A DNA stretch of 64,000 nucleotides. Source: Bacteroidota bacterium (GTDB lineage Bacteria; Bacteroidota; Bacteroidia; 2-12-FULL-35-15). Below, piece by piece: positions 7 to 52,647 of the stretch (its first letter is position 1; each line of letters starts with the position of its first letter). The translations under genes were made by a program, and so were the position numbers. A model generated the notes under the pieces. The model was not told the DNA's origin, searched no databases, and saw only the letters and a list, made by a program, of their open reading frames with translations. The stretch is from assembly GCA_040389865.1 (NCBI GenBank), contig JAZJZM010000014.1:39531-103530 (forward strand). Direction: 5' to 3'.

Positions 7-2940
7 ATGCACCTCAATTGTCATACATATTATAGTTTCAAATATGGAACCATGTCGGTATCACAGCTACTGGCAGAGGCTCAGCATAAAGGAATAACAT
101 CTTTTGTATTAACGGATATTAATAATACTTCTGCCTGCTTAGAGTTTATCAGGGAAGCTCCCAAATATGCTATAGCTCCAATTGTAGGCATCGATTTTAG
201 AATTGGTGCGAAACAACACTACATAGGCATTGCAAAAAATAACGAAGGTTTTTTAGAATTAAATCAACACCTTACTTCTTACCTGTCAAACGAAATAATT
301 TTTCAATCGCAGGCGCCTGAATTCCAAAACAGCTATATTATATACCCGTTCAATACTATTCACCCAAAACTATTACGAGAGAATGAATACATAGGCATAC
401 GTATTTCTGATTTAAATAAATTACTTTTTTCGGAACTAAAAAATCATGTTCACAAGCTTGTGATCCTACATCCTGTTACATTCCGGCATAAAAAAGATTT
501 TAGTGCGCACCGTTTATTAAGAGCGATCGATAATAATACGCTTTTAAGCAAACTTCCTTTAACAGAACAAACGGATATAAATGAGATCATGCTTTCAGAG
601 ATGGACTTATGCAAGATCTATGAAATCTATCCTCAATTGATCAGGAATACAAAAAAAATTATTACTGAATGTGAGGTCAGTTTTGAGTTTGGAAAAAGTA
701 AAAATAAAAAAACGTTCACAGGCAGTATCAGCGGAGATGAGTGCCTGATGAAAGAACTATGTTACGAAGGACTTAAATACAGATACCCTGATCCAGGTTC
801 GGCTGTTTACGAACGTTTAGAAAAAGAGTTGGACGCGATCTTTAAAATGAGTTTTTGTTCTTATTTTTTGATCAACTGGGATATTGTAAAGTATGCTCAG
901 CATAAAAATTATTTTTATGTTGGCAGGGGTAGTGGCGCAAATAGCTTAGCCGCTTATTGTTTGAGAATAACAGATGTTGATCCTGTTGACCTTGATCTTT
1001 ATTTCGAACGTTTTATAAATCCATACCGGGTTAATCCTCCCGATTTCGATATTGATTTTTCGTGGAAAGACAGGGATGGTATTATCCAATACATTTTTGA
1101 AAAATATGGCTCAGCTCATACTGCTTTATTAGCAACCTATAGCACCTTCCAATATAACTCGGTGATCAGGGAACTCGGCAAAGTATTTGGATTACCTAAA
1201 GGAGAAATTGATGAATTGGTTGACAATAAAAAATCAAAACAAACGCCTGATAATATCACTCAGCTTATTTTAAAATATAGTCAGCATATCCATGATTTCC
1301 CAAATCATCTAAGTATTCATGCAGGTGGCATTTTAATTTCCGAAAAACCAATCAACTGGTATACCGCTACCAGCATGCCTCCAAAAGGCTTCCCCTTAAC
1401 ACAATTCAGTATGATTGAATCCGAAGACATAGGGCTTTACAAATTTGACATCCTTAGTCAGCGTGGTTTGGGCCATATAAAAGATACTGTTGAAATTGTA
1501 AAAAAAAACAAAGGAATTGATATTGATATTCATAACATCAGTGAGTTTAAAAAAGACGAAAAAATAAAACAGCTGCTGCGTACTGGAAAAACAATGGGTT
1601 GCTTTTATGTGGAATCTCCGGGAATGAGAATGCTTTTAAAAAAACTGGAAACAGATACTTATTTAGGATTGGTTGCAGCAAGCTCTATTATTCGCCCCGG
1701 TGTTGCTCAATCAGGGATGATGCGTGAATATATTTTACGGTTTCGCGATCCTACACGAAGAACATACATTCATCCGAAAATAGGAGAATTGATGAGTGAA
1801 ACGTATGGCATTATGGTATACCAGGAAGATGTCATAAAAGTAGCACACTACTTTGCTGGCCTTACCTTAGCTCAGGCTGATGTGATGCGTAGAGGAATGT
1901 CGGGCAAGTTCAGGGCAAGAGAAGAGTTTCAAAAAGCAAAAGAAGATTTTTTTATTAATTGCAAGAAAAAGGAATACACGGATACTATCACCAACGAAGT
2001 ATGGCGGCAGATAGAGAGCTTTGCAGGATATTCATTTTCCAAAGGACACTCCGCATCCTATGCCGTTGAAAGTTATCAGAGCCTTTATTTAAAAGCATAT
2101 TTTCCAAAAGAATTCATGGTAGCTGTGATCAATAATTTCGGAGGATTTTACAGAACCGAAAATTATATTCATGAAGCAAAGATGTCGGGAGCAAGTGTAT
2201 TAGCACCTTGTGTGAATAGAAGCGAACACCTGACCACGATATATAACGATGATATTTATTTAGGGTTTATTCATTTAGCAGAATTGGAAAAGATAACTGT
2301 TGAGCTATTATTATCAGAGCGGACAGCAAACGGTGATTTCAAAAACCTGGAGAATTTTATTAAACGCGTAAGTATTTCCGTTGAACAACTTAGAATATTA
2401 ATACGTATCGGAGCATTTCGTTTTATCGAAAAATCAAAAAAAGAATTACTATGGGAAATACATAGCATACTTGGAAGTCAGAAAAAAACTATTCCTAAAA
2501 AAGAACTTTTTGAGATCTCTAAAAAGGAATTTCAACTTCCTGAATTACATCATCACCCCTATGATGATGCTTTGGACGAAATTGAAATATTAGGTTTCCC
2601 ATTGTGTTCTCCATTTTCATTGTTAAAAGATCCTGTTAAAAATAATTTGAATGTTCAGGAGTTAATTCAGCATGTAAATGAAACTATTTCTATCGTTGGA
2701 TATTACGTAACGCATAAACTTACAAGAACTGTAAAAGGCCAGGATATGTCATTTGGAACTTTCCTGGATTCGAATGGTTATTTTTTTGACACCACCCATT
2801 TCCCCAATGTACTGGCCAAGTATCCGTTCATTGGTAAAGGATGTTATTTAATAAAAGGCAAAGTTGTGGAAGAATTCGGTTTTCCAAGTATTGAAGTTAA
2901 TTATATGGAAAAATTATCTTTTTTGAATAGAGAGACCTAA
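7..2940 (+). CDS. DNA polymerase III alpha-subunit family protein (PHP domain + pol III alpha core), possibly error-prone DnaE2-type
   Basis: N-terminal PHP motif 'HLNCHTYYSFKYG...SFVLTDINN'. The 977-aa length is shorter than replicative DnaE. The 'GIMVYQEDV' and 'FSKGHSASYA' blocks are typical of pol III alpha. A stop at 1-3 precedes the ATG. Confidence 0.7.
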   Translation: MHLNCHTYYSFKYGTMSVSQLLAEAQHKGITSFVLTDINNTSACLEFIREAPKYAIAPIVGIDFRIGAKQHYIGIAKNNEGFLELNQHLTSYLSNEIIFQSQAPEFQNSYIIYPFNTIHPKLLRENEYIGIRISDLNKLLFSELKNHVHKLVILHPVTFRHKKDFSAHRLLRAIDNNTLLSKLPLTEQTDINEIMLSEMDLCKIYEIYPQLIRNTKKIITECEVSFEFGKSKNKKTFTGSISGDECLMKELCYEGLKYRYPDPGSAVYERLEKELDAIFKMSFCSYFLINWDIVKYAQHKNYFYVGRGSGANSLAAYCLRITDVDPVDLDLYFERFINPYRVNPPDFDIDFSWKDRDGIIQYIFEKYGSAHTALLATYSTFQYNSVIRELGKVFGLPKGEIDELVDNKKSKQTPDNITQLILKYSQHIHDFPNHLSIHAGGILISEKPINWYTATSMPPKGFPLTQFSMIESEDIGLYKFDILSQRGLGHIKDTVEIVKKNKGIDIDIHNISEFKKDEKIKQLLRTGKTMGCFYVESPGMRMLLKKLETDTYLGLVAASSIIRPGVAQSGMMREYILRFRDPTRRTYIHPKIGELMSETYGIMVYQEDVIKVAHYFAGLTLAQADVMRRGMSGKFRAREEFQKAKEDFFINCKKKEYTDTITNEVWRQIESFAGYSFSKGHSASYAVESYQSLYLKAYFPKEFMVAVINNFGGFYRTENYIHEAKMSGASVLAPCVNRSEHLTTIYNDDIYLGFIHLAELEKITVELLLSERTANGDFKNLENFIKRVSISVEQLRILIRIGAFRFIEKSKKELLWEIHSILGSQKKTIPKKELFEISKKEFQLPELHHHPYDDALDEIEILGFPLCSPFSLLKDPVKNNLNVQELIQHVNETISIVGYYVTHKLTRTVKGQDMSFGTFLDSNGYFFDTTHFPNVLAKYPFIGKGCYLIKGKVVEEFGFPSIEVNYMEKLSFLNRET

Positions 2941-4721: not shown

Positions 4722-4976
4722 TTCATTTCTCCCTATCCCCTTTATTATTCATACCAAAGAAATAAATTCATTCCTTCGGAAGGAAAAGGATTTTTTAACG
4801 ATTTTTAGAACATCAAATTTATTAAAAAGAATTAGCTTTGTGTGAACAATTAAAACAATTGAACAATTTTGCCTAGGCAATTTAACAATTGACAAAAAAA
4901 TGAACAGTTGGCAATTGGCAATGAGCAGTTGCCAAACATCGTTTCGTAAATTCGTAATAATTCGTTATCCGTAATC

Positions 4977-5885: not shown

Positions 5886-5943
5886 CCCCTCACCCCACCC
5901 TTCGGGCACCCCTCTCCAATTGGAGAGGGGAAGGGGGTGAGGT
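5886..5943. terminator. GC-rich nested inverted repeat downstream of the ABC gene (putative terminator)
   Basis: 'cctcacccc...cccctctccaattggagagggg...ggggtgagg' forms a nested perfect hairpin. No clean U-tract follows on the + strand. Confidence 0.4.
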
Positions 5944-6035: not shown

Positions 6036-8087
6036 ATGAAAAAAATCCTAATCCTACTTACAACACCGGCAATTCTTCTTTTTGCCTGCAACAACTCAAC
6101 AAAAAAATCAGAAGCCACAATTGATCTATCTGACCCAATTGCAGAACATATTGATTCTTCTTTTACTCCGGGTCAAAATTTCTTTTTGTTTGCAAACAAT
6201 AATTGGTTTAAACAAAATCCAATTCCTTCATCAGAAAAAAGCAACGGGATTTTCCGAACCATACAGGATACTATCAATGAATCGATCCGCAAGATATGTG
6301 AATCGTCAGTTTCTGATACTCAATTAAAAAAGGGAAGCAACAAACAAAAAATCGGTGATTTCTATTTTTCCGGAATGGATACGGTAACCATTGAAAAGGC
6401 CGGCTATTCGGGCTTAAATGAAGAATTCATTAAAATTGATGCTGTAAAAAATATTCCGGAATTACTTGGAGCTGTTGCTCACCTGCAAACGCTAGACGTT
6501 TCATCAATGTTTTCATTTGGAATAAGTCCGGATGAAAAAAACAGCTCCAAGAATGCTGTTTACATTGCACAAGCCAATTTAGGTTTGCCCGAACGTGATT
6601 ATTATTTTAATACAGATTCCCGTACAAGTGATATCCGCAAGGAGTATGCGAAACATATAAAATCAATGTTCCGGTTAATAGGTACGGATGAAAAAACTTC
6701 TTCGGCAAATAGCGAAAGTATTATTAAGCTGGAAACAGCTATTGCCAAAGCCAGTAGAAAAATGGAAGACTTACGTGATCCATATAAAAACTACAATAAA
6801 ATGTCAATTTCGGAAGTCAACAAATTAACGCCATCTATCCAATGGCCTGAAATTATGACTGGTTTAGGTTTAAAAAACGTGGATACAATTATAGTTGGAC
6901 AGCCTGAATTTTTTACTGCTTTGGAAACAGATCTAAAAAAAATAAATATTGCCGATTGGAAACTCTATTTAAAATGGACATTATTAAACGACTATGCTGC
7001 TTGTTTAAACAAAAAAATTGAAGACGAACATTTCTATTTTTATTCAACAGTACTTGAAGGCGTAAAAGAACAAAAAACACGTTTAAAAAAGATCGTTGAA
7101 AGCACAGACGCTGCACTTGGCGAGCTGATCGGACAAGTTTATGTAGATGAGTATTTACCGAAAGGCACCAAAGAAAAATTACTGGAAATAGGCAACAATA
7201 TCCGTGATGTATATGCCGATCATATCAAGGCGTTGGATTGGATGACGGATGCTACTAAACAAAAAGCATTAAGTAAATTGAGTAAAATAAATATGAAAGT
7301 AGGTTATCCTGATAAATGGAAAGATATGTCCAACTTGGAGATTGATAGGAGCAGTTATGTTCAAAACACAATAAATGTAAGTAAATGGGAGTATAATTTT
7401 ATGATCAATAAATACGGCAAACCTGTTGATCGTAACGAATGGAATATGTCTCCGCAAACATACAATGCCTATTACAGCCCCACAAACAATGAAATTGTGG
7501 TTCCTGCATGCAATATCATTGTTCCTGGATTTGAAGGCCGGATGCCTGATGATGCTGTATTATATGGCATTGTAGGCGGCTCCACATTCGGGCATGAAAT
7601 CACGCACGGCTTTGATGACCAGGGAAGTTTGTATGATGAAAAAGGAAACCTAAAAGACTGGTGGACAAAAGAAGACCGTGAAAAATTTGTTGTTAAAACA
7701 AAATTAATAGTTCAGCAGTTCAATGATTATAAGGTGCTTGACAATATACACGTAAAAGGAGAAAATTCACAAGGTGAAAACATTGCAGATCTTGGTGGTG
7801 TAATTATGGGTTATGAAGCATTCAAAAAAACAAAGCAAGGTCAATCTACAGAAAAGATGCATGGACATACCCCCGATCAGCGCTACTTTTTGTCCTATGC
7901 CTATGCCTGGATGGTGAACCGCACCGATGCATCATTAGCAAAACAAATAATGAGCGATGTACACTCCCCTGCTGAGTTTCGCATCAACGGCCCCCTTTCC
8001 GATATTGATGAATTTTACCAGGCTTTTAATATAATTAAGAGTGATGCAATGTATCGTGATGAAAATATCAGAGTTAAGATATGGTAG
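6036..8087 (+). CDS. M13-family zinc metallopeptidase (neprilysin/PepO-like), lipoprotein
   Basis: Lipobox 'LLFACNNS', zinc motif 'HEITHGFDDQG' and 'ENIADLGG' typical of M13 peptidases. 683 aa. Confidence 0.85.
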   Translation: MKKILILLTTPAILLFACNNSTKKSEATIDLSDPIAEHIDSSFTPGQNFFLFANNNWFKQNPIPSSEKSNGIFRTIQDTINESIRKICESSVSDTQLKKGSNKQKIGDFYFSGMDTVTIEKAGYSGLNEEFIKIDAVKNIPELLGAVAHLQTLDVSSMFSFGISPDEKNSSKNAVYIAQANLGLPERDYYFNTDSRTSDIRKEYAKHIKSMFRLIGTDEKTSSANSESIIKLETAIAKASRKMEDLRDPYKNYNKMSISEVNKLTPSIQWPEIMTGLGLKNVDTIIVGQPEFFTALETDLKKINIADWKLYLKWTLLNDYAACLNKKIEDEHFYFYSTVLEGVKEQKTRLKKIVESTDAALGELIGQVYVDEYLPKGTKEKLLEIGNNIRDVYADHIKALDWMTDATKQKALSKLSKINMKVGYPDKWKDMSNLEIDRSSYVQNTINVSKWEYNFMINKYGKPVDRNEWNMSPQTYNAYYSPTNNEIVVPACNIIVPGFEGRMPDDAVLYGIVGGSTFGHEITHGFDDQGSLYDEKGNLKDWWTKEDREKFVVKTKLIVQQFNDYKVLDNIHVKGENSQGENIADLGGVIMGYEAFKKTKQGQSTEKMHGHTPDQRYFLSYAYAWMVNRTDASLAKQIMSDVHSPAEFRINGPLSDIDEFYQAFNIIKSDAMYRDENIRVKIW

Positions 8088-8094
8088 TTTTCTA

Positions 8095-8225
8095 AAGAAT
8101 TAGAGAAATAGAGAATTGGAGAGTTGGAGAATTGGAAAGGTTACAAAATCGAAAATTGAACTTTAAACAAAAGACTATATCTCTAATTCAATAAATCACT
8201 AAACTCCATTTCTCTATTTCACTAA
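8095..8225. repeat. imperfect palindromic array built from 'agagaattggagagttgg' units with an inverted partner
   Basis: Forward 'agaattagagaaatagagaattggagagttggagaattgg', then inverted 'tctctaattc...atttctctatttc...aatctctattt'. The same unit recurs at 61542-61600. Confidence 0.5.
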
Positions 8226-8242
8226 ATCTCTATTTTTTTATA

Positions 8243-9421
8243 ATGTTAACACAACGCCAGCTTTTTTTTAATCATCTTGCTCAAACAAGTGAAACACCTT
8301 TAGCTTTAGAAATTGAAAAGGCGGAAGGCATCTATTTAATTGATGTTTCCGGAAAACGGTATATTGATTTAATTTCGGGCATTTCCGTTAGCAATGTAGG
8401 GCATCGTCATCCGAAGGTGTTAGCTGCTATTCAAAATCAATTGGATAAATACATGCACCTGATGGTGTATGGCGAATTTATTCAAAGTCCTCAAGTACAA
8501 CTTGCCAAACTTTTATCAGACCACCTTCCTGAAAATTTAAGTTCAGTTTATTTTGTTAATTCGGGCAGCGAAGCAATAGAAGGAGCAATGAAACTGGCTA
8601 AACGTTTTACCGGCCGAACAGAGATCATATCTTTCAAAAATGCATATCACGGCAGTACGCATGGTAGTTTAAGTATAATGGGTAATGAAGAATTTAAAAA
8701 TGCATTCCGCCCCCTGTTACCGGATATCCGGCAAATTGAATACAATAATATAAGTGACTTAAAACAAATAACAACTAATACTGCAGCTGTTATAATAGAA
8801 ACAATTCAAGGCGAAGCCGGTGCTATTATTCCACAAAATGATTTTTTAAAAATTCTTAAAAAACGCTGTGACGAAGTGGGAGCAATGCTTGTAACCGATG
8901 AAATACAATGTGGATTTGGGAGAACAGGAAAACTATTTGCTTTTGAACATTATGATTTCATTCCTGATATACTTTGTTTAGCAAAAGGAATGGGTGGCGG
9001 AATGCCTGTTGGAGCCTTCATTTCCTCTAAAGAGATCATGCATTCGCTCACCAACAACCCGCATCTGGGACACATTACCACATTTGGAGGACATCCGGTT
9101 TCTTGCGCTGCAAGCGCAGCTACATTAACTGTTTTGATGGAAGAAAAATTAATTGAGCAGGTCGAAAACAAAGAAAAATTATTTCGCAGCTTATTAAAAC
9201 ATTCCCGAATAAAATCAATAAACGGTAAAGGATTACTGCTTGCTATAGAGTTCGAAAGCTATGAACAAAACAAAAAAATAATTGATAAGTGTATTGAAAA
9301 AGGTGTAATTACGGATTGGTTCTTATTTAATTCACATTCCATGCGTATTGCACCGCCTCTCACTATTACCGAAGAAGAAATCACAAATGCTTGTGAAATT
9401 ATTTTGGACTGTATTGGTTAA
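8243..9421 (+). CDS. class-III (PLP-dependent) aminotransferase, acetylornithine/ornithine aminotransferase-like
   Basis: 'TDEIQCGFGRTG' and 'LAKGMGGGMPVGA' class-III motifs. 392 aa. Confidence 0.8.
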   Translation: MLTQRQLFFNHLAQTSETPLALEIEKAEGIYLIDVSGKRYIDLISGISVSNVGHRHPKVLAAIQNQLDKYMHLMVYGEFIQSPQVQLAKLLSDHLPENLSSVYFVNSGSEAIEGAMKLAKRFTGRTEIISFKNAYHGSTHGSLSIMGNEEFKNAFRPLLPDIRQIEYNNISDLKQITTNTAAVIIETIQGEAGAIIPQNDFLKILKKRCDEVGAMLVTDEIQCGFGRTGKLFAFEHYDFIPDILCLAKGMGGGMPVGAFISSKEIMHSLTNNPHLGHITTFGGHPVSCAASAATLTVLMEEKLIEQVENKEKLFRSLLKHSRIKSINGKGLLLAIEFESYEQNKKIIDKCIEKGVITDWFLFNSHSMRIAPPLTITEEEITNACEIILDCIG

Positions 9422-9473
9422 GAGTAAGGAACAAAAAAAAATTACGAAAAGGTATTTGCCATTTTTAATTTGT

Positions 9474-9732
9474 GCCGTTTCGAGGGCAAACGCATTTAAA
9501 AATTTTTAATTTTTTTAGGCTTTTAGACAAAGAGCCGTAGGCTCTGTTTATTTTATAAGGATGGACTTTAGTCCATCCACTAAAGTAAGACCGACATACT
9601 TAAAGAGTCGTAGGCTCGGTTCATATAATTACAATATCATTCGCTCCGGAGTTTATCCTGACGAAGGAAGGGGAACTCTGTATTTGAAAATATTGAGCAT
9701 TGCTAAATTTAGATGCGTTTGCCCTAGTTTCG
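9474..9732. repeat. about 260-bp hairpin-rich intergenic element bounded by 11-bp inverted repeats (MITE/sRNA-like)
   Basis: 'agggcaaacgc' at 9483-9493 and 'gcgtttgccct' at 9715-9725 enclose three hairpins: 'caaagagccgtaggctctgttt', 'gatggactttagtccatc / actttagtccatccactaaagt', and 'gagtcgtaggctcgg'. Confidence 0.3.
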
Positions 9733-9763
9733 TAAATTACTGATCATTCGTAATTCGTAACTA

Positions 9764-10123
9764 TTAGTAATTCCCGATCGACAACATCACCAATGTACAT
9801 CCCACAATAGTTTCAATTTTATTCTGTTTTAGCAATTGTTCAAACTCGGGATTTTCTGTTCCCGGATTAAAGATCACGCGCTTAGGCTTTAAACCAATGA
9901 TATATTCAAACCAGAACGGTTGATTTTTGGGCCCTACATAAAGCGTTATTGTGTCAACATTATCTATATCCACTTTCTCCTTAAGGATCTTTAATCCGTT
10001 AATTTCGCCATCATGAATACCAACAGGTATTACTTCATGATTGCGTCTTTGCAAGGCTATTGTGGCTTTATAGGCATACCTGTTTGGATTATCGGAAGCT
10101 CCTATTACAACAGTTTTTTTCAT
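9764..10123 (-). CDS. CoA-binding domain protein
   Basis: 119 aa, 'VIGASDNPNRYAYKA' N-terminal CoA-binding (YccU-like) pattern. Confidence 0.75.
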   Translation of the reverse strand: MKKTVVIGASDNPNRYAYKATIALQRRNHEVIPVGIHDGEINGLKILKEKVDIDNVDTITLYVGPKNQPFWFEYIIGLKPKRVIFNPGTENPEFEQLLKQNKIETIVGCTLVMLSIGNY

Positions 10124-10136
10124 CTGAAATTAGTCA

Positions 10137-10283
10137 ATGGTTGTTAGTTGTTAGTTGTTAGTTGTTAGCTGATGGTAGATGCCATTATCAATTGTCAATT
10201 GTTAATTGATTCCTTTTGATGGTTGTTAGTTGTTGTTACCTAAATGCCCAATTGCCTATTGCTTAATTGCCTACTGCTAAATT
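10137..10283. repeat. tandem 'gttgttagtt' x4 followed by 'caattg'/'aattgcct' word repeats
   Basis: 'gttgttagttgttagttgttagttgttagct', 'caattgtcaattgttaattg' and 'caattgcctattgcttaattgcctactg' read directly. The inverted counterpart 'caactaacaa' array is at 28022-28080. Confidence 0.7.
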
Positions 10284-10288
10284 GATCC

Positions 10289-11596
10289 TTACTCCACCTC
10301 CATATAATCAAGATCCTTCCCATGTGTTTCATCCAGAAAAAATGTTGCCATAATGGCGAGTGGAATTACAACCCCACCCACGATCATTGCTGATTGTACT
10401 ATTCCTATACCCACCGACATATAATTCCACCATATTATCATCAATACCGTAGATCCCCTCACAAAATTAGGGACAGTGGTAGTAACGGTCGACCGGATAT
10501 TGGTACCGAACTGTTCGGAAGCCACCGTAACAAAAACGGCCCAATAGCCCATTGCTATTCCCATTACAAAAATGATGCTATAAAACAATTGGGGAGAAAC
10601 TCCTGAGGCTGCAAAAAACCAGGAACAGAATATTCCCAGGCAAACCAAGGCAATTACCAGGGCCTTTTTTCTTGACTTTAATTTTTGACTGATAAAACCG
10701 GTTAAAATACTTCCGAAAGCAGCACCAATATAATGAAACATAACAGATTTGCCCGTATTCACCGAACCCGTAACTCCAAGCGCTTCACCAAATTCTTTTG
10801 AAAAAGTGACCAGGATACCAACAGCAAACCAAACAGGAACACCTACAAATATGCAGCAGATATATTTGAAAAAACGTTTACCATTTTTAAATAAACCTAT
10901 AAAATCACCTCGTTTTACCGAAGATGTTTTCATTTTTTCAAACATTCCCGATTCATGAATATAAACGCGCAACAAAAGCAATACTAATCCGAGTCCTCCT
11001 CCAACCCAATAGGCTTCTCTCCAGCCCCATTCGGCCATATAAAAAGCCAATACAGCGCCCAGTATCCCTATACCCGAAACAATACTGGTGCCCCATGCAC
11101 GCGTTTCCTTTGTCATTACTTCCGAAACAAGCGTAACCCCTATCCCCAATTCACCGGCAAGACCAAAGCCTGCTATCACACGCAGCCAGGCGTATTGATT
11201 AAGATTTTGAACAAAACCATTTGCAATATTTGCCAGCGAATAAAGTAAAATAGTAAGAAAAAGTGTAGATAATCGTCCTTTTTTATCACCTAAAACTCCC
11301 CAAGCAATTCCACCAAGAAGCATGCCTATCATTTGCATATTAATAAGGAAAATACCGGAATCTTTAATTTGGTCGGCCGGGATCCCGATCGCCTGTAAGC
11401 TCGGAACCCGAACAATACTAAATAGAATTAGATCATAAATATCAACAAAGTAACCAAGGGCGGCTATAATAACCACTATGTTGAAAGGATTGCTGCTTCC
11501 GTTTTTAAGCATAAAGCTATTTTTTGAGTGCTTAAATGTAATAATAAAAAGTCCTCTTTTTCTGAAATTTAATTTGGGTTTCAGGCACCTGTTCAT
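10289..11596 (-). CDS. MFS transporter
   Basis: 435 aa, about 12 predicted TM segments, 'GVLGDKKGR' MFS motif-like loop. Confidence 0.8.
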   Translation of the reverse strand: MNRCLKPKLNFRKRGLFIITFKHSKNSFMLKNGSSNPFNIVVIIAALGYFVDIYDLILFSIVRVPSLQAIGIPADQIKDSGIFLINMQMIGMLLGGIAWGVLGDKKGRLSTLFLTILLYSLANIANGFVQNLNQYAWLRVIAGFGLAGELGIGVTLVSEVMTKETRAWGTSIVSGIGILGAVLAFYMAEWGWREAYWVGGGLGLVLLLLRVYIHESGMFEKMKTSSVKRGDFIGLFKNGKRFFKYICCIFVGVPVWFAVGILVTFSKEFGEALGVTGSVNTGKSVMFHYIGAAFGSILTGFISQKLKSRKKALVIALVCLGIFCSWFFAASGVSPQLFYSIIFVMGIAMGYWAVFVTVASEQFGTNIRSTVTTTVPNFVRGSTVLMIIWWNYMSVGIGIVQSAMIVGGVVIPLAIMATFFLDETHGKDLDYMEVE

Positions 11597-13854: not shown

Positions 13855-14011
13855 TAGGCACAATTAAACAATTTTGCAATTTTTCAGTAGGCAATAAGGA
13901 TATGTTAAATTACATAATTGCCTACTGATTAATTGTAAAATTAAATAATTGCCTACTGAAAAATTGTTTTAAATTGCTCAATTAGGGTAAATAACCATAA
14001 ACACAGGTCAG

Positions 14012-14617: not shown

Positions 14618-14754
14618 TTTAAACCGAAAAATGAGAGTTTCAGGTTTCAGGTTCTGTGTTAAACAAACTTGAAATTTGAAACTTTTTTAAAATTTGAACA
14701 CATTTCTTATATTTTAAGGTCATTTATAGTAGTTAAACTCAAAAATCCAAAAAT

Positions 14755-18292: not shown

Positions 18293-19491
18293 TTGGAATA
18301 ACCATTAGATTTCAATATTAGTTTTGATCGTTAAAATTGAAGTTTCAGGTTTTTATGTTTGGTAACAAACATAAAAATCTGAAACTTTTTTTATTATTAA
18401 ACTGTGCTATAAATTCTTAAAACATCTTTTGAGCTTGAGTTCAATCAATAAAATAAAATTGAAAAAAGAATTTTTATTTTGACGTTTCCCTTTCTTGAAG
18501 AAATAAAAAGAGTGGCTCGGCCAAACTGTCAATACCTTCGTGTAATGTGGCTGCAGCCCATTTTGGTCTCATTGCCGTCTTGCTTTAGGACTTTAATCAT
18601 AACAAATTAGATAATTTTCGCTAACTTTACTATGTGAAAAAATTTGCTTACATATTTATTCTATTATCATGTTTTGGGTTTAGATCCATGCATGCAGAAT
18701 CTGTGCAAATGTTCAAGGCAAAGTACAGCTCTGAATTAAATAGATCTGAAAAAAAACATATTCAGAAGACTCCCGCGCTTTCATTAAGTATAATTACTTC
18801 GAAAGAGTCGGACGAAAATCCATTTTCAAAAAAAAGAAAGAGAGCAAAAAAAGGCCTATCACCAATCTTTTTTTGTCTTACAGATCAACCCCATTTAAAA
18901 ATTATTTTTTTTGAAATTGACTTAGTTTATGCTCCCCAGTCATTTCATTTCTCACACCTTCATTACGCCTGTGGTGAACGTGGTCCGCCCACCATTTCCC
19001 TTTCTTAAAACCCCACATTTTATTTATTCATTTTAGAACATAGCGCTATGCGTTTGTTCCGCCAACAATTTTAATCATGAAAAGCTGGAAAGTTGTCATA
19101 TACTATTTCGGAGATACACTCGAAGTAATAATCGAAGCAAGATCTTATGCTGAGGCCTGTTTCTCAGCAGAGCGGATCTATTCAGGTTGCACTATTAACG
19201 AAATTTCCGAGATCAAATATTAAAAAAAAATCCATTTTTTTTACCGAGACTAACAACATCACCTTTGGGATATGTTGGTTTTCTGTATGTAACAATTTGG
19301 AAAATAAGGGTTCACTATTGAAAAAACAGAGCATTAATTTTAATAAAAAATTAAAATCAGGCCTATACACAAACAGCATAAAACCATTGACATTAGACTG
19401 TTTCACTCATATATGTAATTAAAAAAAAAGCCCTCCTGAACATTAAAGATCTAATAGGGAATATTTTTTTATGATTCATATACGCAATTCG

Positions 19492-20335: not shown

Positions 20336-20395
20336 CAAAACCCAACAAAAATGAATATTGATTTTATTCATTTTTGTTGGGTTTTTCTTTTTCTA
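20336..20395. terminator. strong bidirectional intrinsic terminator
   Basis: Perfect 19-bp stem 'aaacccaacaaaaatgaat / attcatttttgttgggttt' followed by 'ttctttttc'. Sits between convergent phaB and the ATP-grasp gene. Confidence 0.8.
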
Positions 20396-21914: not shown

Positions 21915-21920
21915 TTTGTA

Positions 21921-22036
21921 TTTAGATCTTGGATTTTAGATGTTGGACGTTAGATGTTGGACGTTAGATGCTGGATTTTAGATGGGTTTAAATGTGTGGC
22001 TCTAATATCTAAAATCCTATATCTAACATCTAACTA
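21921..22036. repeat. palindromic 'tagatgttgg' satellite between the decarboxylase and ATP-grasp genes
   Basis: Forward 'ttttagatgttggacgttagatgttggacgttagatgctggattttagatgg' and inverted 'ctaaaatcctatatctaacatctaac'. Confidence 0.7.
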
Positions 22037-24778: not shown

Positions 24779-24792
24779 CTTTTTTGTATTGT

Positions 24793-24984
24793 GATGTTGG
24801 GGTATTAGATGTTGGATATTAGATGTTGGATATTAGATGTTGGATATTAGATGTTGGATGTTAGATGTTAGATGTTAGATGTTAGATGTTAGATATTGGA
24901 TGTTGGATGTTGGATGTTGGATATTTAATTCGGGTAAAGACACTTTTACAACCATAGCCTCCAACATCTAACATCCAACATCTA
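24793..24984. repeat. palindromic 'tagatgttgga' satellite array immediately upstream of the decarboxylase start
   Basis: About 13 tandem units 'attagatgttggat / gttagatgtta' over 24793-24925, then the inverted copy 'ccaacatctaacatccaacatcta' at 24961-24984. Confidence 0.75.
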
Positions 24985-24988
24985 TTCT

Positions 24989-25776: not shown

Positions 25777-27984
25777 TTGGCAACAACACTCGAAAAACTA
25801 AAGACAAATTATTGGTTTCAATCTATTTTGAATAGCTATAGTTTGATGTTTTTTTCTTTAAATAATGTTCTTGCGGCTATTATTTTAATAGTGACTTTTT
25901 TTTCGCCTTATGTAGGATTGTCGGGCTTGGCAGCAATCGTTCTAATAAACCTATCTGCCTATTTTATAGGATTTAACAGGGATGAAATACTGAACGGACT
26001 TTTTGGTTTCAATGCCTTATTTCTTGGCCTTGCTTTGGGGTATGAGTTTTCATTTAACCTACCCTTTATAGCATTATTTATAACAGCGGTTTTGATCCTG
26101 CTTCTAATTACTGTATGGCTGAAAGGATTGTTTTCCCTATACAATTTGCCATTTTTATCCTTTCCATTCATTCTTACGTATTGGATCATTTCTTTAGCAG
26201 CCTCCAATCTTACAAATGTTTATTTAGATGAAGATCACATTTATATTGCAAATGAACTGATACTTAATCAATCCTCTTCATTTTATCAGTTCGTTCATTC
26301 TTTCGACAACATCAACGTTTTCCCGTTTATTCTTATTTACTTTAAAACGCTTGCAGGTACTTTTTTTCAAAGTAGTGTTTTAGGCGGTATGTTAATTGCA
26401 GCCGGATTACTTTACTTTTCACGTATTGCTTTTTCCCTGAGCCTCATAGGTTTTTCTTCTGCTTTTTTTTTCTATTCAATATTTGGTGCGGATGTAAATG
26501 ACTTAAATTATAATTTACTTGGATCCAACTTCATGTTTCTCGCAATTGCGATTGGTTGCTTTTTTCTAATTCCCAACACCTATAGTTATATAACCGTTCT
26601 TATTCTCACACCTATACTAATGTTGGTATTATTATCATTTGGTAAAATGTTGGCAGTTTTTCAACTCAAAGCCTTTACCTTTTCATTTAGTGTTATCTGC
26701 ACCGCTTTCCTCTTTACATTGAATCAACGATGGTTTCAAAAGTATTTACATGTTGTTACCATTCAGTATTTTTCAGCAGAAAAAACCATTTATAAATACC
26801 TGAATTCCATTCAGCGTTTCAAAAACGAACATCTTCTTAAGATCATACTTCCATTTTCCGGAGAATGGAATGTAAGCCAGGGCTATGATGGAAAAATAAC
26901 GCATTTAGGCGATTGGAGTAAAGCCTTGGATTTTGTGATCGTTGATTCCAAATCCAAAACCTATCATGAGCCATCCAACTACAGAGAAGGTTTTTCCACC
27001 GAAAATTTTTATTGCTATAATAAAGAGATCTTTTCTCCTTATGATGGTTATGTGTATGACATCATTAATACTGTTGAAGAAAATGATGTTGGGGAAGTGG
27101 ATACAGCGCATAACTGGGGAAATACTGTTATTCTGAATCATCTTAATGGATTGTTTTCACAAATAAGTCACATTAAAAAAGATTCATTTAATGTTTTTAT
27201 CGGACAATATATTTATAAGGGCTCATTTATTGCAACCTGCGGAAATTCGGGACGTTCGCCTGAACCGCATATCCATTTTCAATTGCAAACAATTCCCTCT
27301 ATTGGGGCAAAAACATTAGCCTACCCTATTTCATATTTTATTGAACGGGAAGGAAAAAAGAAAACGCTAAAAATTTCGGAGATCCCTAAAGAAGGCTCCT
27401 TCATAAGTAATGTGCAGGTAAATGAAATATTGATCTTAAGCTTTTCATTTTTACCGGGACATAAAATTACCTTTCAAAAGGAAAACACCGCTTCTACTAT
27501 CATCTGGGAAGTTTTTACAGATGCCTGGAACAGAACGTATATTTATTGCCAGGAAAGCAAATCATACGCTTACTTTATCAATGATGGTGTAATGTTATAT
27601 TTTACCGATTTTGAAGGGGATCGAAAATCATTGTTGTTTAATTTCTATCTGGCGGCTTACAGGCAGCTGCTTGGATATTATGAAAACATTAAAATAAAAG
27701 ACAATGTTCCTTTAATTCATTTCAATAGTAAATGGCTACAGTTTTTTCAGGATTTTGTTGCTCCTTTTTACCTGTTCACGAAAGCCAATTTCAGCTCCAC
27801 ATTTACGTATACTGATAATATTTATGCCCCGCAAAAATTAATTATTAATGCTGAAGTTGAAACTAAACTTATAAACTATACATTTAAAAAAATTAATTTT
27901 GAGTTTGAATTAAAGGACAATAAAATTCATCGTTTCACCATTCATGGTAAAAATAAAACCGAATCCTATATACTCAATCGATAA
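25777..27984 (+). CDS. polytopic membrane protein fused to an M23 (LytM) peptidase domain
   Basis: TTG start. Residues 1-330 form about 9-10 TM helices. M23 blocks 'HLGDWSKALDFV', 'DGYVYDI' and 'GNSGRSPEPHIHFQLQ', then about 230 further residues. Confidence 0.7.
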   Translation: MATTLEKLKTNYWFQSILNSYSLMFFSLNNVLAAIILIVTFFSPYVGLSGLAAIVLINLSAYFIGFNRDEILNGLFGFNALFLGLALGYEFSFNLPFIALFITAVLILLLITVWLKGLFSLYNLPFLSFPFILTYWIISLAASNLTNVYLDEDHIYIANELILNQSSSFYQFVHSFDNINVFPFILIYFKTLAGTFFQSSVLGGMLIAAGLLYFSRIAFSLSLIGFSSAFFFYSIFGADVNDLNYNLLGSNFMFLAIAIGCFFLIPNTYSYITVLILTPILMLVLLSFGKMLAVFQLKAFTFSFSVICTAFLFTLNQRWFQKYLHVVTIQYFSAEKTIYKYLNSIQRFKNEHLLKIILPFSGEWNVSQGYDGKITHLGDWSKALDFVIVDSKSKTYHEPSNYREGFSTENFYCYNKEIFSPYDGYVYDIINTVEENDVGEVDTAHNWGNTVILNHLNGLFSQISHIKKDSFNVFIGQYIYKGSFIATCGNSGRSPEPHIHFQLQTIPSIGAKTLAYPISYFIEREGKKKTLKISEIPKEGSFISNVQVNEILILSFSFLPGHKITFQKENTASTIIWEVFTDAWNRTYIYCQESKSYAYFINDGVMLYFTDFEGDRKSLLFNFYLAAYRQLLGYYENIKIKDNVPLIHFNSKWLQFFQDFVAPFYLFTKANFSSTFTYTDNIYAPQKLIINAEVETKLINYTFKKINFEFELKDNKIHRFTIHGKNKTESYILNR

Positions 27985-28080
27985 TGGATAATGGATATTG
28001 GATAATTGATAATGGACAATCACCTAACAACTAACAACCATCAACTAGCAACTAACAACCATCAACTAACAACCAAACTA
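27982..28080. repeat. 'ataatggata' and 'caactaacaa' tandem word repeats
   Basis: 'ataatggataatggatattggataattgataatggac' followed by 'cacctaacaactaacaaccatcaactagcaactaacaaccatcaactaacaacc', the reverse complement of the 10137 array. Confidence 0.7.
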
Positions 28081-28082
28081 AA

Positions 28083-30691: not shown

Positions 30692-30710
30692 GTTTAAGTT
30701 AAAGCACTGT

Positions 30711-30762
30711 TATACTGAACTTGTTTCAGCATCTAAAGAGATTCCGAACAAGTTCGGAATGA
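30711..30762. repeat. double-hairpin repeat, copy 1
   Basis: 'atactgaacttgtttcagcatc ... attccgaacaagttcggaat'. An inverted copy sits at 37454-37503. Confidence 0.7.
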
Positions 30763-30858
30763 CGTTTTCTTCATGAATGTTCGTGGTTGGTTCTCTCATC
30801 TCAATACTATCAAGGATTCTTCGTAAATTTGTATATTATCACTTAAATTATTGATTAA

Positions 30859-31320
30859 ATGGCGAAACCTAGTTTTGATGAAATTTATATGGAATTGGCA
30901 GAAAACCTTGCTAAGCGCTCGCATTGCGTAAAAGCTAAAGTTGGTGCTGTTCTTACAAAAGATACACGTATTATTTCTTTAGGATACAATGGGCCACCTG
31001 CAGGCACCCACAATTGTGATGAAGTATGGCCGGATGTTGGATGCCCAAGGGATAGTAAAGGCAGCTGTTCTTTAGCTTTGCATGCCGAACAAAACGCTAT
31101 TTTATATGCCGCAAAAAGTAATATCTCTATTGAAGGCTCTACCCTGTATGTAACTCTTTCACCATGTATATCTTGTGCCAGAGTTATATTTACCATAGGT
31201 ATAAAAAAAGTATATTACCTGAATTCCTATGCCGATTTTAAAGGCTTACAAAGTGATGAAGGGGTTGATTTCCTCCAAAAATTCGGTGTAGAAGTGGTGA
31301 GGTATATTAAAAAACAATAG
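30859..31320 (+). CDS. dCMP (deoxycytidylate) deaminase
   Basis: Zinc-binding 'HAEQNAI' and 'SPCISCARVI' CMP/dCMP deaminase motifs. 153 aa. Confidence 0.8.
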   Translation: MAKPSFDEIYMELAENLAKRSHCVKAKVGAVLTKDTRIISLGYNGPPAGTHNCDEVWPDVGCPRDSKGSCSLALHAEQNAILYAAKSNISIEGSTLYVTLSPCISCARVIFTIGIKKVYYLNSYADFKGLQSDEGVDFLQKFGVEVVRYIKKQ

Positions 31321-31519
31321 GCAATTTTTACGCTAAGCAAATTTGCAATAGGCAATTTAACTGTAGACAAGGCTGAAATTTTAATACATAATTTTAACAA
31401 AAAATGGCTTAATTAAATGCTACTTCACCAACACGTGATTGTAAAATTGTATTCAAATACTTATATTTGTATAAGCAAATTGCCCATTGATTAATTGTAT
31501 AATTGCCTAATTAAAAATA

Positions 31520-33121: not shown

Positions 33122-33140
33122 AAAAAAACAGCACAAAAAA

Positions 33141-33172
33141 AAAGCATTCTTGTTGAAGAATGCTTTTTTTTG
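33141..33172. terminator. bidirectional intrinsic terminator
   Basis: 'aagcattctt gttg aagaatgctt' flanked by an A-run and a T-run, between convergent genes. Confidence 0.7.
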
Positions 33173-33187
33173 TACCGTAAAATAGAA

Positions 33188-33731: not shown

Positions 33732-33739
33732 TACCTTTG
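33732..33739 (+). promoter_or_regulatory. candidate -7 promoter element 'TACCTTTG' upstream of sod
   Basis: Same 8-mer as the phasin promoters, about 45 bp upstream of the ATG. Confidence 0.35.
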
Positions 33740-35150: not shown

Positions 35151-35152
35151 GT

Positions 35153-52502: not shown

Positions 52503-52528
52503 TTTTTCATTTAATTAATATATTTAGA

Positions 52529-52646
52529 GTCAGGATTTAAGAATCAAGACGCAAGATGTTGTTCGTGTACTAAATTCATTTGTCTTAACTCTTGATTCTT
52601 AGATCTTGGTTCTTAGATCTTGGTTCTTAAATCTTAACTCTAACAT
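52529..52646. repeat. palindromic satellite built on 'tcttggttcttaga' units
   Basis: 'ttaagaatcaagac...gtcttaactcttgattcttagatcttggttcttagatcttggttcttaaatcttaactc'. Confidence 0.6.
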
Positions 52647-52647
52647 A

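What the first reader, a model, noticed from the sequence alone, without database searches (positions are those of the whole stretch)
8095..8225. 'gttggaga' tandem word arrays at two unrelated intergenic sites
61542-61600 is a clean 7x 'agttggaga' array between yidD and the S41 peptidase. 8095-8140 carries the same unit ('agagaattggagagttggagaattgg') followed about 60 nt later by an inverted partner, between the M13 peptidase and the aminotransferase. The recurring architecture across this window is a forward array, a spacer, then an inverted copy, each site using its own word. This suggests a genome-specific mechanism that generates such repeats rather than ordinary terminators.
Basis: seen in the sequence. 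Interest (0 to 1): 0.5.

Follow-up and report, generated by a model that had tools for sequence, protein, structure and literature searches.

The report
Fast-evolving octamer repeat hairpins between genes
The two 'gttggaga' arrays are real copies of a fast-changing family of 8-base tandem repeats that fill gaps between genes in an uncultured Bacteroidota bacterium; similar repeats have been described in other bacteria, their function is still unknown, and they are not ordinary terminators.

Summary
Both arrays exist and are far beyond chance, but the unit is 8 nt (AGTTGGAR), not 9. Site 61543-61600 has 7 clean units starting at the yidD stop codon and no inverted partner. Site 8088-8242 has about 5 degenerate units, of which only 2-3 are TTGGAGAG-like. 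Its 75-86% complementary partner lies 74-82 nt downstream and pairs mainly with the TAGAGAAA units.

At least seven other spacers in the window carry period-7/8/14 arrays, several with inverted partners. Close relatives show whole-unit indels, a lost partner arm, and complete replacement of the same orthologous spacer by hairpins built from other words. More distant relatives have only 12-40-nt spacers at three of these sites.

The same octamer array, often with the same forward/inverted layout, occurs in more than 118 loci from a very wide taxonomic range. So the mechanism is not genome-specific. In about 30 of 31 pairs the C-free arm comes first and the G-free arm second. Rehm et al. 2015 reported the same polarity and convergent pairing for Xanthomonas and Nostoc heptamers, with function unknown.

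Best reading: slippage-driven long simple-sequence repeats with template-switched inverted arms, tolerated inside operon spacers. They are a new member of a known but unexplained kind.

The parts
8088..8145 (+). C-free arm of the site-A element. It holds about 6 degenerate 8-nt units (TCTAAAGA ATTAGAGA AATAGAGA ATTGGAGA GTTGGAGA ATTGGAAA) and starts 1 nt after the TAG stop codon of the M13 peptidase gene.
   Evidence: an 8-nt indel and 80% identity versus the ortholog L120
8146..8174 (+). Non-repetitive middle segment (loop) of the site-A element.
8175..8242 (+). G-free arm of the site-A element, with 8-nt periodic complementary units (ATCTCTAA TTCAATAA ATCACTAA ACTCCATT TCTCTATT TCACTAAA TCTCTATT). 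It is followed by T7 and then the aminotransferase ATG at 8243. It is 97% identical to L120, more conserved than the flanking genes (91%).
61543..61600 (+). Seven clean AGTTGGAR units starting at the yidD stop codon. This is the homogenised C-free arm of the site-G element.
61601..61632 (+). Degenerate units followed by a remnant of the G-free arm (TTCCAAAATCACTAAATC). The full arm survives in the orthologs L122 and L123.
61633..61666 (+). Conserved leader of the S41 peptidase gene, with TAAATTTG at 61636-61643. It matches TAnnTTTG, which I recall (own knowledge) as the Bacteroidetes -7 promoter box. This is context, not part of the repeat.
   Evidence: the motif assignment rests on own knowledge
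10124..10288 (-). Spacer filled with GTTGTTA x4, ATTGTCA-type units, GTTGTTAGTTGTTGTTA and AATTGCCTACTGCTA x2.3. It stands where three relatives carry an extra 418-aa gene.
21915..22036 (-). Hairpin element of TTAGATG/TTGGAC words between the decarboxylase gene and the next gene (RNA z -6.4). Two relatives have a 12-nt spacer here.
24779..24988 (-). Short C-free arm followed by about 19 units of CATCCAA/CATCTAA on the sense strand, ending about 30 nt before the decarboxylase ATG (z -6.2). Relatives have 13-41-nt spacers.
27976..28082 (+). ATAATGG x6 overlapping the stop codon, followed at once by G-free CTAACAA-type units x7 up to the next ATG. The two arrays are not complementary to each other. 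The sense RNA is almost unstructured (-5.1 kcal/mol).
52503..52647 (-). 14-nt period array (TCTTGGTTCTTAGA x3.3) with an inverted partner, between the malic enzyme/PTA gene and ruvA.
13885..13958 (+). CAGTAGGCAAT / AATTGCCTACTG word hairpin. The same word family is at 10250-10276 and 31315-31512, and it fills the orthologous site-A spacer of relative L121.
31315..31512 (+). A further CAATAGGCAATT ... AATTGCC word hairpin, between the deaminase gene and a second S41 peptidase gene.

Best explanation
The two sites are probably copies of one family of fast-evolving intergenic repeat elements in an uncultured Bacteroidota lineage. They belong to the broader, already described class of prokaryotic long simple-sequence repeats with 5-11-nt units, which often occur as convergent inverted pairs.

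Anatomy (shown). An element starts at, or a few nt after, the upstream gene's stop codon with a C-free arm of 8-nt units (TTAGAGAA, ATAGAGAA, TTGGAGAG). A unique segment of roughly 15-75 nt follows. Then comes a G-free arm of roughly complementary 8-nt units (ATTCTCTA, ATTCAAYA, AATCACTA) running toward the next start codon.

Dynamics (shown). Arrays gain and lose whole units, arms are homogenised or lost, and whole spacers are replaced between genomes that are about 90% identical in their genes.

Mechanism (inferred).
- Units expand and contract by replication slippage.
- The second arm arises and is kept similar by intrastrand template switching, as in quasi-palindrome correction.
- Words recur at unrelated loci, so there is either some copy-and-paste dispersal or a strongly sequence-biased expansion process.

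Consequence (inferred). The elements are co-transcribed inside operon-like spacers. They place a G-free and therefore nearly unstructured, start-codon-free leader in front of the downstream gene. In some copies they also form a long hairpin. They are tolerated passengers or mild RNA-level modulators, not terminators.

Polarity (rule shown, reason inferred). The C-free arm comes first and the G-free arm second. The strands that read outward into both neighbours therefore contain no G. I suggest this persists because such strands cannot carry ATG/GTG/TTG start codons or the TTG of -35/-33 promoter boxes.
For: Arrays are real and non-random.

Whole-unit change.
- Window versus L120 at site A shows an exact 8-nt indel. 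The C-free arm is 80% identical and the G-free arm 97%, against 91% for the flanking genes.
- Site-G orthologs L122 and L123 keep 6-7.5 degenerate units plus a G-free arm. The window has 7 clean units and has lost most of that arm.

Turnover.
- The orthologous M13-peptidase/aminotransferase spacer carries three unrelated word hairpins in four genomes. All are C-free arm first, and their RNA fold z-scores run from -2.7 to -8.4.
- Sites at 21915, 24779 and 27985 are 12-81 nt in 87%-identity relatives. Single-copy candidate seeds (atccaacat, ctaacaa) lie in two of those short spacers.

Same family at unrelated loci.
- The 17-mer TTCAAYAAATCACTAAA is shared by sites A and G, with about 0.015 expected by chance (the expectation is my hand estimate from base composition, not a tool result).
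- Two more copies occur in relative L046, one of them between accB and accC.

Class behaviour across bacteria.
- More than 118 loci from many lineages hold the octamer, and periods 8 and 7 dominate in them.
- Among C-free arrays the inverted partner lies downstream in 31 cases and upstream in 1. Among G-free arrays it lies upstream in 27 and downstream in 1.
- After stop codons the sense strand of the array is C-free in 63 cases and G-free in 16. Before start codons it is G-free in 33 and C-free in 14. The rule also holds for arrays without a detectable partner.
- Array-free UTRs of this lineage show the opposite skew after stops (C 17.9% versus G 14.2%), so the polarity is specific to the arrays.

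The same polarity, convergent pairs and length variation were published for GGGAATC and GGGGAYT repeats (PMC4692102). G-free sense leaders are almost unstructured.
Against: - Slippage alone does not explain why one word recurs at unrelated loci, or in many contigs of one genome (for example UBA876).
- Homology of the copies beyond the repeated word is only suggestive: leave-one-site-out nhmmer gives E values of 0.007-0.5.
- No direct evidence of transcription, processing or any effect on expression is available.
- The polarity explanation is an argument, not a test. It does not obviously explain convergent gene pairs better than a DNA-level generator would.
- Gene calls in the foreign loci are simple ORF calls and are unreliable at high GC.
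- The loci were selected for one word and several come from the same genomes, so the counts are not independent.
Confidence: 0.55

Rival explanations
1. They are non-autonomous mobile elements (REPIN-, REP/BIME- or MITE-like hairpins) moved by a transposase encoded elsewhere, such as a RAYT/IS200-type enzyme that acts on single-stranded hairpins. The tandem periodicity is then secondary decoration.
For: - Similar elements sit at four or more unrelated loci in the lineage.
- The CAGTAGGCAATT word family occurs at several loci and in several genomes.
- An orthologous spacer is occupied by different families in different genomes.
- The same spacers host small selfish-looking genes (PDDEXK_3, 23S_rRNA_IVP) in relatives, so they are insertion hot spots.
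Against: - No target-site duplication or defined ends could be recognised.
- No transposase is encoded in the 64-kb window.
- Short single-copy seeds of the word exist in relatives' spacers, which suggests growth in place.
- Similarity outside the repeated word is weak.
- This reading is not exclusive with slippage.
Confidence: 0.15
2. They are transcription terminators or 3'-end stabilising hairpins, built from AU/GU-rich repeats because the genome is AT-rich.
For: - Site A and its L119 counterpart end in T7 and T10 runs after the hairpin.
- Spacers 14618-14754 and 18293-18420 have GTTTCAG-word hairpins followed by T-runs.
- Arrays are twice as frequent between convergent as between divergent genes (32 versus 16, against a baseline of 86 versus 89).
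Against: - Site G has no hairpin.
- Sites at 21915 and 24779 and the accB-accC copy lie inside operon-like gene pairs and have no T-run.
- The middle segments are tens of nt long and stems are weak per base pair.
- 3 of 7 copies of this family fold no better than shuffles, at z above -1.2.
- Compact GC-rich terminators with T-runs exist elsewhere in the window, for example 20337-20385.
Confidence: 0.1
3. They are cis-acting binding arrays for a conserved factor. Candidates are GGA motifs for CsrA, ATTGG/CCAAT for cold-shock proteins, G-free C-rich tracts as Rho loading sites, or S1-binding translational enhancers.
For: - The same octamer recurs across a very wide taxonomic range, even in 65% GC genomes.
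- The G-free arm/leader is more conserved than the flanking genes.
- Long G-free, C-containing unstructured leaders precede some genes.
- MacGregor proposed S1, Csp or CsrA binding for TAACTGA repeats (PMC4679880).
Against: - One genome uses many unrelated words.
- Copy number and sequence change quickly.
- From own knowledge, cyanobacteria lack Rho, yet the polarity rule holds in Nostoc (PMC4692102).
Confidence: 0.1
4. They are scars of DNA break repair. GT-rich repeats would be added to, or preserved on, both 3' tails of a break (telomere-healing-like, or Chi/RecA-biased processing of palindromes cut at the centre). Rejoining would then leave convergent G-strand arrays.
For: - The arm order is strand-symmetric and nearly invariant at about 30:1, which is what two 3'-tail extensions joined head to head would give.
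- Arrays mark rearrangement points. A 418-aa gene present in three relatives is replaced by arrays at 10124-10288, and the arrays are the breakpoints of otherwise collinear alignments.
- From own knowledge, GTTGGAGR resembles the Haemophilus Chi variant GSTGGAGG.
Against: - Many different words occur in one genome.
- Arrays begin exactly at stop codons and fill spacers that were 12 nt long, an unlikely target for random breaks.
- Whole-unit indels and seeds fit slippage.
- No enzyme candidate was identified.
Confidence: 0.05

Closest known systems
G-rich heptamer repeats GGGAATC (Xanthomonas) and GGGGA(C/T)T (Nostoc), Rehm et al. 2015, PMC4692102
   Same: - Tandem 7-nt units in non-coding DNA with variable copy number between close relatives.
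[quoted passage not shown]
- There are many convergent inverted pairs (70-75 per genome).
- They are under-represented between divergent genes, and no function is known.
- The window's arrays and the 118 foreign loci follow the same positional and polarity rules.
   Different: - Units here are 8 nt (also 7, 14 and 15) and have only GG, never GGG, so the G-quadruplex rationale does not apply.
- Several unrelated words coexist in one genome.
- The lineage is Bacteroidota.
- Copies share a non-identical but recognisable G-free arm.
Long simple sequence repeats with 5-11-nt units (LSSR5-11), Mrazek et al. 2007, as summarised in PMC4679880 and PMC4692102
   Same: Head-to-tail short units with heptamers most common, sporadic phylogenetic distribution, an intergenic bias, and attribution to polymerase slippage rather than to a specific function.
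   Different: As summarised in those two papers, that survey does not mention inverted partner arms, arm polarity or replacement of orthologous spacers.
TAACTGA heptamer direct repeats (Beggiatoaceae, cyanobacteria, five Bacteroidetes), MacGregor 2015, PMC4679880
   Same: - Intergenic heptamer arrays lie just upstream of start codons.
- Indels come in 7-nt steps between strains.
- Flavobacteriia (Elizabethkingia, Gramella, Aequorivita) have spacers with assemblages of several heptamer repeats that are absent from close relatives.
   Different: That study covers a single mixed-composition word and almost only direct repeats (one indirect repeat among 170 sets). It proposes a translational regulator. 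Neither the octamer word nor arm polarity is described.
REP/BIME and REPIN elements of Proteobacteria (for example PMC2817692)
   Same: Dispersed imperfect palindromes in extragenic space, often between co-transcribed genes and at 3' ends, with families that differ between strains.
   Different: REPs are 20-40-nt units without internal 7-8-nt tandem periodicity, are present in hundreds of near-identical copies, and are linked to RAYT transposases. None of this could be shown here.
Rho-independent terminators
   Same: A hairpin after a stop codon, and a T-run in some copies (site A, L119).
   Different: Arms are long, weak and repeat-built, the middle segments are tens of nt long, most copies lack a T-run, and they lie inside operon-like spacers.

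Membership tests
Long SSR with 5-11-nt units (LSSR5-11) | At least 3 head-to-tail copies of a 5-11-nt unit, longer than chance allows | tested here: met
   7.1 and 5.1 copies of 8-nt units. 12 arrays against 0.99 in shuffles. 9 word matches against 0.99 expected.
Long SSR with 5-11-nt units (LSSR5-11) | Copy number varies between related genomes in whole units | tested here: met
   Exact 8-nt indel between window and L120. Different unit counts in L122, L123 and the window.
Long SSR with 5-11-nt units (LSSR5-11) | Bias toward non-coding DNA | tested here: met
   Every period-7/8/14 array with score >=50 in the window lies in a spacer or overlaps only a stop codon, although 86% of the window is coding.
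Xanthomonas/Nostoc-type convergent G-rich heptamer repeats (PMC4692102) | The G-rich strand is next to its 5' neighbouring ORF: after a stop on the coding strand, or before a start on the non-coding strand | tested here: met
   Both sites start at the stop codon with the C-free strand as sense. Pooled counts are 63:16 after stops and 33:14 before starts.
Xanthomonas/Nostoc-type convergent G-rich heptamer repeats (PMC4692102) | Frequent pairs in convergent (plus-then-minus) orientation | tested here: met
   Site A, 21915, 24779 and 52503 in the window. Pooled partner positions are 31:1 and 27:1. Site G lacks the partner in the window but has it in L122 and L123.
Xanthomonas/Nostoc-type convergent G-rich heptamer repeats (PMC4692102) | GGG tracts able to form G-quadruplexes, with a preference for four units | tested here: not met
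   Units contain at most GG. No four-unit preference is seen: copy numbers run from about 3 to 19.
Rho-independent terminator | Compact GC-rich stem with a short loop, followed by a U-tract | tested here: not met
   The terminator scan of 7000-11000 reports nothing at site A. The arms are 74-82 nt apart. Site G has no hairpin. A T-run is present only at site A.
Rho-independent terminator | Located at the end of a transcription unit | tested here: not met
   Sister elements lie in spacers that are 12-40 nt in relatives and between accB and accC. For sites A and G themselves the transcription units are unknown.
REP/BIME/REPIN | Many near-identical dispersed palindromic copies per genome | tested here: inconclusive
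   Four loci carry related copies in about 223 kb of lineage sequence. Similarity beyond the repeated word is weak, and the whole genome was not available.
REP/BIME/REPIN | Linked RAYT (Y1 transposase) gene | not testable with these tools
   None is encoded in the window. The rest of the genome could not be read.
MITE | Terminal inverted repeats with a target-site duplication | tested here: inconclusive
   The arms themselves are inverted repeats. No consistent duplication was seen at the junctions of five copies.
CRISPR array | Repeats of 24-48 nt separated by unique spacers of similar length | tested here: not met
   The units are 8 nt and contiguous.
Any Rfam RNA family | Match at the family's gathering score | tested here: not met
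   0 matches in the whole window.

The most novel reading that the evidence does not exclude
The near-invariant, strand-symmetric arm order (C-free array first, G-free array second) is seen here for non-quadruplex words across a very wide taxonomic range. It may be the signature of a conserved DNA-level process that writes convergent GT-rich arrays into spacers. One such process would be repeat extension or preferential survival of both 3' tails at a break or cleaved hairpin, a bacterial analogue of telomere healing with Chi/RecA-type bias. On this reading the order would not be the outcome of selection on transcripts, and the recurrence of AGTTGGAR across distant lineages would reflect the sequence preference of that machinery.
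Probability: 0.07. Interest if true: 0.85.

Novelty: new member of a known kind. Interest (0 to 1): 0.42.

Why it matters
Short 7-8-nt tandem repeats in bacterial spacers have been catalogued since 2007 without an accepted function or origin.

This case adds three things:
- The positional and polarity rules described for quadruplex-forming heptamers also hold for words that cannot form quadruplexes, and in many bacterial lineages. That undercuts the quadruplex explanation.
- Orthologous spacers between genes that are about 90% identical can be rewritten completely with different repeat words. These are among the fastest-evolving parts of these genomes and could serve as strain markers.
- The elements sit inside operon-like spacers, so any function is more likely to concern the transcript (leader structure, processing) than termination.

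For annotation, the practical message is that these are not terminators, CRISPRs or small RNAs.

Tried and rejected
- **Exact-protein look-ups** of two window proteins found nothing. The source genome is not in that collection, so relatives were reached through homolog searches instead.
- **Rfam** gave no family in the window.
- **Literature search for the literal repeat strings** gave no paper.
- **Word-specificity control.** The counts were 0, 2 and 2 hits, so viruses hardly carry such arrays and the control is uninformative. Whether AGTTGGAR is commoner than other octamers remains untested.
- **Sense-specific RNA selection.** I asked whether G-U pairs make the sense hairpin more stable than the antisense one. 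There is no consistent difference across 16 sites, so I dropped this as evidence for a structured-RNA function.
- **General UTR composition as the cause of polarity** is rejected. Array-free regions after stops have C above G, the opposite of the arrays.
- **Arm polarity of canonical terminators.** My strict finder returned too few sites to compare (7 in the lineage loci), so no claim is made.
- **Leave-one-site-out homology test** of the G-free arm gave only weak hits, so 'same element family' is stated as probable, not proven.
- **G-quadruplex, CRISPR and small-ORF readings** are rejected from the sequence itself.
Full report
**1. Observation**

The window has 35% GC.

Site G (61543):
- TRF reports 61542-61598 as 7.1 copies of the 8-nt unit AGTTGGAG, with 95% matches.
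- The units read AGTTGGAG/AGTTGGAA and begin at the last base of the yidD stop codon, TAA 61540-61542.
- There is no inverted partner. The RNA from 61536-61670 folds no better than shuffles (z +1.5).

Site A (8088-8242):
- The M13-peptidase gene ends at TAG 8085-8087 and the aminotransferase gene starts at 8243.
- TRF reports 8096-8136 as 5.1 copies of an 8-nt unit with 84% matches. The units read AGAATTAG AGAAATAG AGAATTGG AGAGTTGG AGAATTGG, so only the last 2-3 carry the TTGGAG word.
- The inverted partner is 8204-8243. Arms are 29 nt at 86% or 40 nt at 75% complementary, 74-82 nt apart. It mainly complements the TAGAGAAA units.
- The spacer folds at -35.5 kcal/mol, z -3.2.

Significance:
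- GTTGGAGAGTTGGAG with up to 3 mismatches gives 9 hits against 0.99 expected. No shuffle of 100 reached 9.
- The window has 12 TRF arrays with score >=50, against 0.99 in locally composition-preserving shuffles.

**2. The rest of the window**

Arrays of period 7, 8, 14 or 15 fill several other spacers. All lie between co-directional genes.

| Spacer | Content |
|---|---|
| 10124-10288 | GTTGTTA x4 and others |
| 21915-22036 | TTAGATG/TTGGAC words with inverted partner, RNA z -6.4 |
| 24779-24988 | short arm plus about 19 CATCCAA/CATCTAA units, z -6.2 |
| 27976-28082 | ATAATGG x6 overlapping the stop codon, then CTAACAA x7 up to the ATG |
| 52503-52647 | 14-nt period array with inverted partner |
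| 10250, 13885-13958, 31315-31512 | CAGTAGGCAAT/AATTGCCTACTG word hairpins |

On the sense strand of the flanking genes the arm after the stop codon is C-free. The arm that runs toward the next start codon is G-free. No transposase is encoded in the window; the genes are housekeeping. Rfam finds nothing.

**3. Source and relatives**

The closest proteins are labelled as coming from uncultured 'Bacteroidota/Bacteroidia bacterium' MAGs. Three syntenic relatives (L119-L121) are about 90% identical in genes. They align collinearly except at the repeat-bearing spacers.

The M13/aminotransferase spacer in four genomes:

| Genome | Spacer | Content | RNA z |
|---|---|---|---|
| window | 155 nt | TAGAGAAA/TTGGAGAG element | -3.2 |
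| L120 | 148 nt | same element as the window | -4.0 |
| L119 | 85 nt | TTCGGAATGCGGATTG / CAATCCGCA hairpin followed by T10 | -2.7 |
| L121 | 199 nt | CAGTAGGCAATTT / AATTGCCTACTG hairpin | -8.4 |

All four have the C-poor arm first.

Window versus L120:
- There is an exact 8-nt indel plus 8 substitutions in 41 nt of the C-free arm (80% identity).
- The G-free arm and leader are 97% identical, more conserved than the flanking genes at 91%.

Site G orthologs:
- L122 and L123 (96% protein identity) have 6-7.5 degenerate units, a loop, and a G-free arm such as ATCTCTTAATCTCCTATTCAACAAATCACTAAATC.
- The window has homogenised the first arm and lost most of the second.
- Relatives at 77-81% identity have no array there.

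Sites 21915, 24779 and 27985:
- In relatives at about 87% identity these spacers measure 12-81 nt where no gene has been inserted.
- Two of the short spacers contain single copies of the later-repeated words (atccaacat, ctaacaa).
- Two relatives instead carry small PDDEXK_3 or 23S_rRNA_IVP genes in the same spacers.

At 10124-10288 the window has arrays where three relatives have a 418-aa gene.

**4. Are sites A and G the same element?**

- Besides the TTGGAGAG word they share TTCAAYAAATCACTAAA in the G-free arm. My hand estimate from base composition is about 0.015 chance occurrences in 223 kb.
- A more distant relative (L046, about 84% identity) has two further copies: one after a stop codon upstream of accB, and one between accB and accC. 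Both start TA(A/G)-TTAGAGAA.
- Six copies align over their full length.
- A model built only from the site-A G-free arm finds the other copies as its best non-self hits, but only weakly (E 0.007-0.5).

I therefore treat 'one dispersed family' as probable, not proven. Folding of this family is inconsistent, with z from +1.5 to -4.0. A conserved RNA structure is therefore not its defining property.

**5. Beyond this lineage**

By the record titles they include:
- Acidobacteriota/Aminicenantes
- Bacteroidota and Ignavibacteriae
- Clostridia-type Firmicutes
- Geobacteraceae, Deferribacteres and Chloroflexi
- Cyanobacteria
- Parcubacteria, Myxococcales and Pirellula
- Verrucomicrobiota and Gemmatimonadales
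- Betaproteobacteria
- Thermodesulfovibrio and ANGP1

Cultured isolates and 65% GC genomes are among them.

What these loci show:
- Periods 8 (136 arrays) and 7 (54) dominate.
- Many arrays are followed within tens of bases by the reverse-complement array, for example AGTTGGAG...CTCTCCAA in L091, L094, L024, L040, L049 and L057.
- Arm order: C-free arrays have their partner downstream in 31 cases and upstream in 1. G-free arrays have it upstream in 27 and downstream in 1. This order reads the same on both strands, so it is a true asymmetry.
- Relative to the nearest ORF, the sense strand is C-free after stops in 63 cases against 16. It is G-free before starts in 33 against 14.
- The rule also holds for arrays without a detectable partner. 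In co-directional spacers the counts are 20 and 14 following the rule against 6 and 4 breaking it; in convergent spacers, 19 against 4.
- Arrays are twice as common between convergent as between divergent genes (32 versus 16). The baseline number of spacers is equal (86 versus 89).
- Arrays often start at the stop codon itself.

Caveats: gene calls are plain ORF calls, the loci were chosen for one word, and several come from the same genomes.

In array-free spacers of the window's lineage the 30 nt after stops have C 17.9% against G 14.2%. This is the opposite of the arrays (G 19.6%, C 7.5%). The polarity is therefore specific to the arrays.

**6. What is known**

- Mrazek et al. 2007, as summarised in PMC4679880, defined long SSRs of 5-11 nt. 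Heptamers were commonest. The repeats were sporadic across bacteria and were attributed to slippage.
- MacGregor 2015 described TAACTGA repeats before start codons, 7-nt-step indels, and Flavobacteriia spacers full of assorted heptamer repeats that are absent in close relatives.
- Rehm et al. 2015 described GGGAATC (Xanthomonas) and GGGGAYT (Nostoc) repeats. They are intergenic and variable between close relatives. [quoted passage not shown] There are 70-75 convergent inverted pairs per genome, and they are rare between divergent genes. The function is 'still to be elucidated', and the authors favoured G-quadruplexes.

The window's arrays obey the same rules but cannot form quadruplexes, since they contain at most GG.

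**7. Explanation**

Shown:
- whole-unit gain and loss
- arm loss and homogenisation
- spacer replacement
- location in operon-like spacers
- the polarity rule

Inferred:
- Slippage drives unit number.
- Intrastrand template switching creates and maintains the inverted arm.
- Words spread to other spacers either by an unknown copy mechanism or by a strong sequence bias.
- The elements are co-transcribed.

The G-free sense leaders are almost unstructured: -5.1 kcal/mol over 107 nt at 27976-28082, against -17.8 for the antisense. There is no consistent sense-over-antisense hairpin advantage, so I do not claim a selected RNA hairpin.

My proposed reason for the polarity is an inference. With the C-free arm first, both strands that read outward into the neighbours lack G. 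They therefore cannot contain ATG/GTG/TTG start codons or the TTG of -35/-33 promoter elements, so the element is silent toward its neighbours. The reverse order would be harmful and would be purged. A DNA-level generator that only makes this order is not excluded (see the novel case).

**8. Verdict**

It is wrong that the mechanism is genome-specific.

These are a new member (octamer, non-quadruplex, Bacteroidota) of a known but unexplained class. Interest is moderate. The generality of the polarity rule and the wholesale rewriting of orthologous spacers are the points worth following up.

Noticed in passing
window 7-2940 (+): The first gene is a 977-aa DNA polymerase III alpha-type protein (PHP, NTPase, finger and HHH domains), a size I associate with error-prone DnaE2-type polymerases. 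The three syntenic relatives have other genes (PAS/HisKA kinase, esterase) upstream of the shared 84-aa ORF.
   Followed up: no
window 4940-4976, 9725-9763, 30810-30835, 34946-35152, 44400-44496, 54940-54990, 61630-61660: A TTCGTAAATTCGTAA-like motif (ATTCGTA/ACGAAT repeats) recurs in many spacers, usually just upstream of genes. At 30692-30858, 34946-35152 and 61636-61643 it reads TAAATTTG, which fits the TAnnTTTG motif I recall as the Bacteroidetes -7 promoter box. TRF picks up some of these as period-7/8 mini-arrays.
   Followed up: no
window 39915-40896; 30700-30790 and 37450-37520; 41809-42109 and 57298-57655: Three other dispersed palindromic families of REP-like look: (1) ACCCTGACAGGGTTTCAAACCCTGTTAGG, which includes an 82-nt direct repeat at 39915-40076; (2) TTCCGAACTTGTTTCGGAA next to CTGAAACAAGTTCAGCATGAC; (3) CTCGACAGGCTCGAAATGAC.
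   Followed up: no
L133 9877-10284 and L134 6617-6979 (orthologous to window spacers 21915-22036 and 24779-24988): In two relatives the spacers flanking the decarboxylase gene carry small inserted genes (PDDEXK_3, 23S_rRNA_IVP), where the window carries repeat hairpins. These junctions look like insertion hot spots.
   Followed up: partly
window 10124-10288 versus L119 11662-12918, L120 12342-13598, L121 11362-12618: A 418-aa gene with no Pfam hit lies between the CoA-binding and MFS genes in three relatives. It is absent from the window, where the 165-nt spacer is made entirely of tandem words. A 790-aa TPR/SpoIIE gene is likewise present only in L120 and L121, downstream of the aminotransferase gene.
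   Followed up: partly
window 5886-5943: A GC-rich hairpin after the ABC-transporter gene is conserved in all four syntenic genomes. It contains the perfect palindrome CTCTCCAATTGGAGAG, which is the TTGGAGAG word and its complement in the opposite (C-arm first) order.
   Followed up: no
window 33190-33420 (-): The 663-nt 'spacer' 33122-33784 probably holds an unlisted small gene on the minus strand. It would encode a lipoprotein-like peptide starting MKKLFTLLFVAVAMSIVACG. The TRF repeats at 33208-33246 and 33294-33340 would then be coding repeats, not spacer arrays.
   Followed up: no
L089 5387-6075; L012 63-827; L021 11-227: Some foreign loci carry very long arrays of related words: about 690 nt of TGAAAGTTGGAAAGT starting at a TGA stop codon (L089), 22 copies of a 32-nt unit in Arthrospira (L012), and 29 copies of TTGAAAG (L021).
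   Followed up: no
L094 2610-2800: In a 64% GC genome an AGTTGGAG / CTCTCCAA hairpin sits between two sequences that look like tRNA genes. Such elements are therefore not restricted to spacers between protein-coding genes.
   Followed up: no
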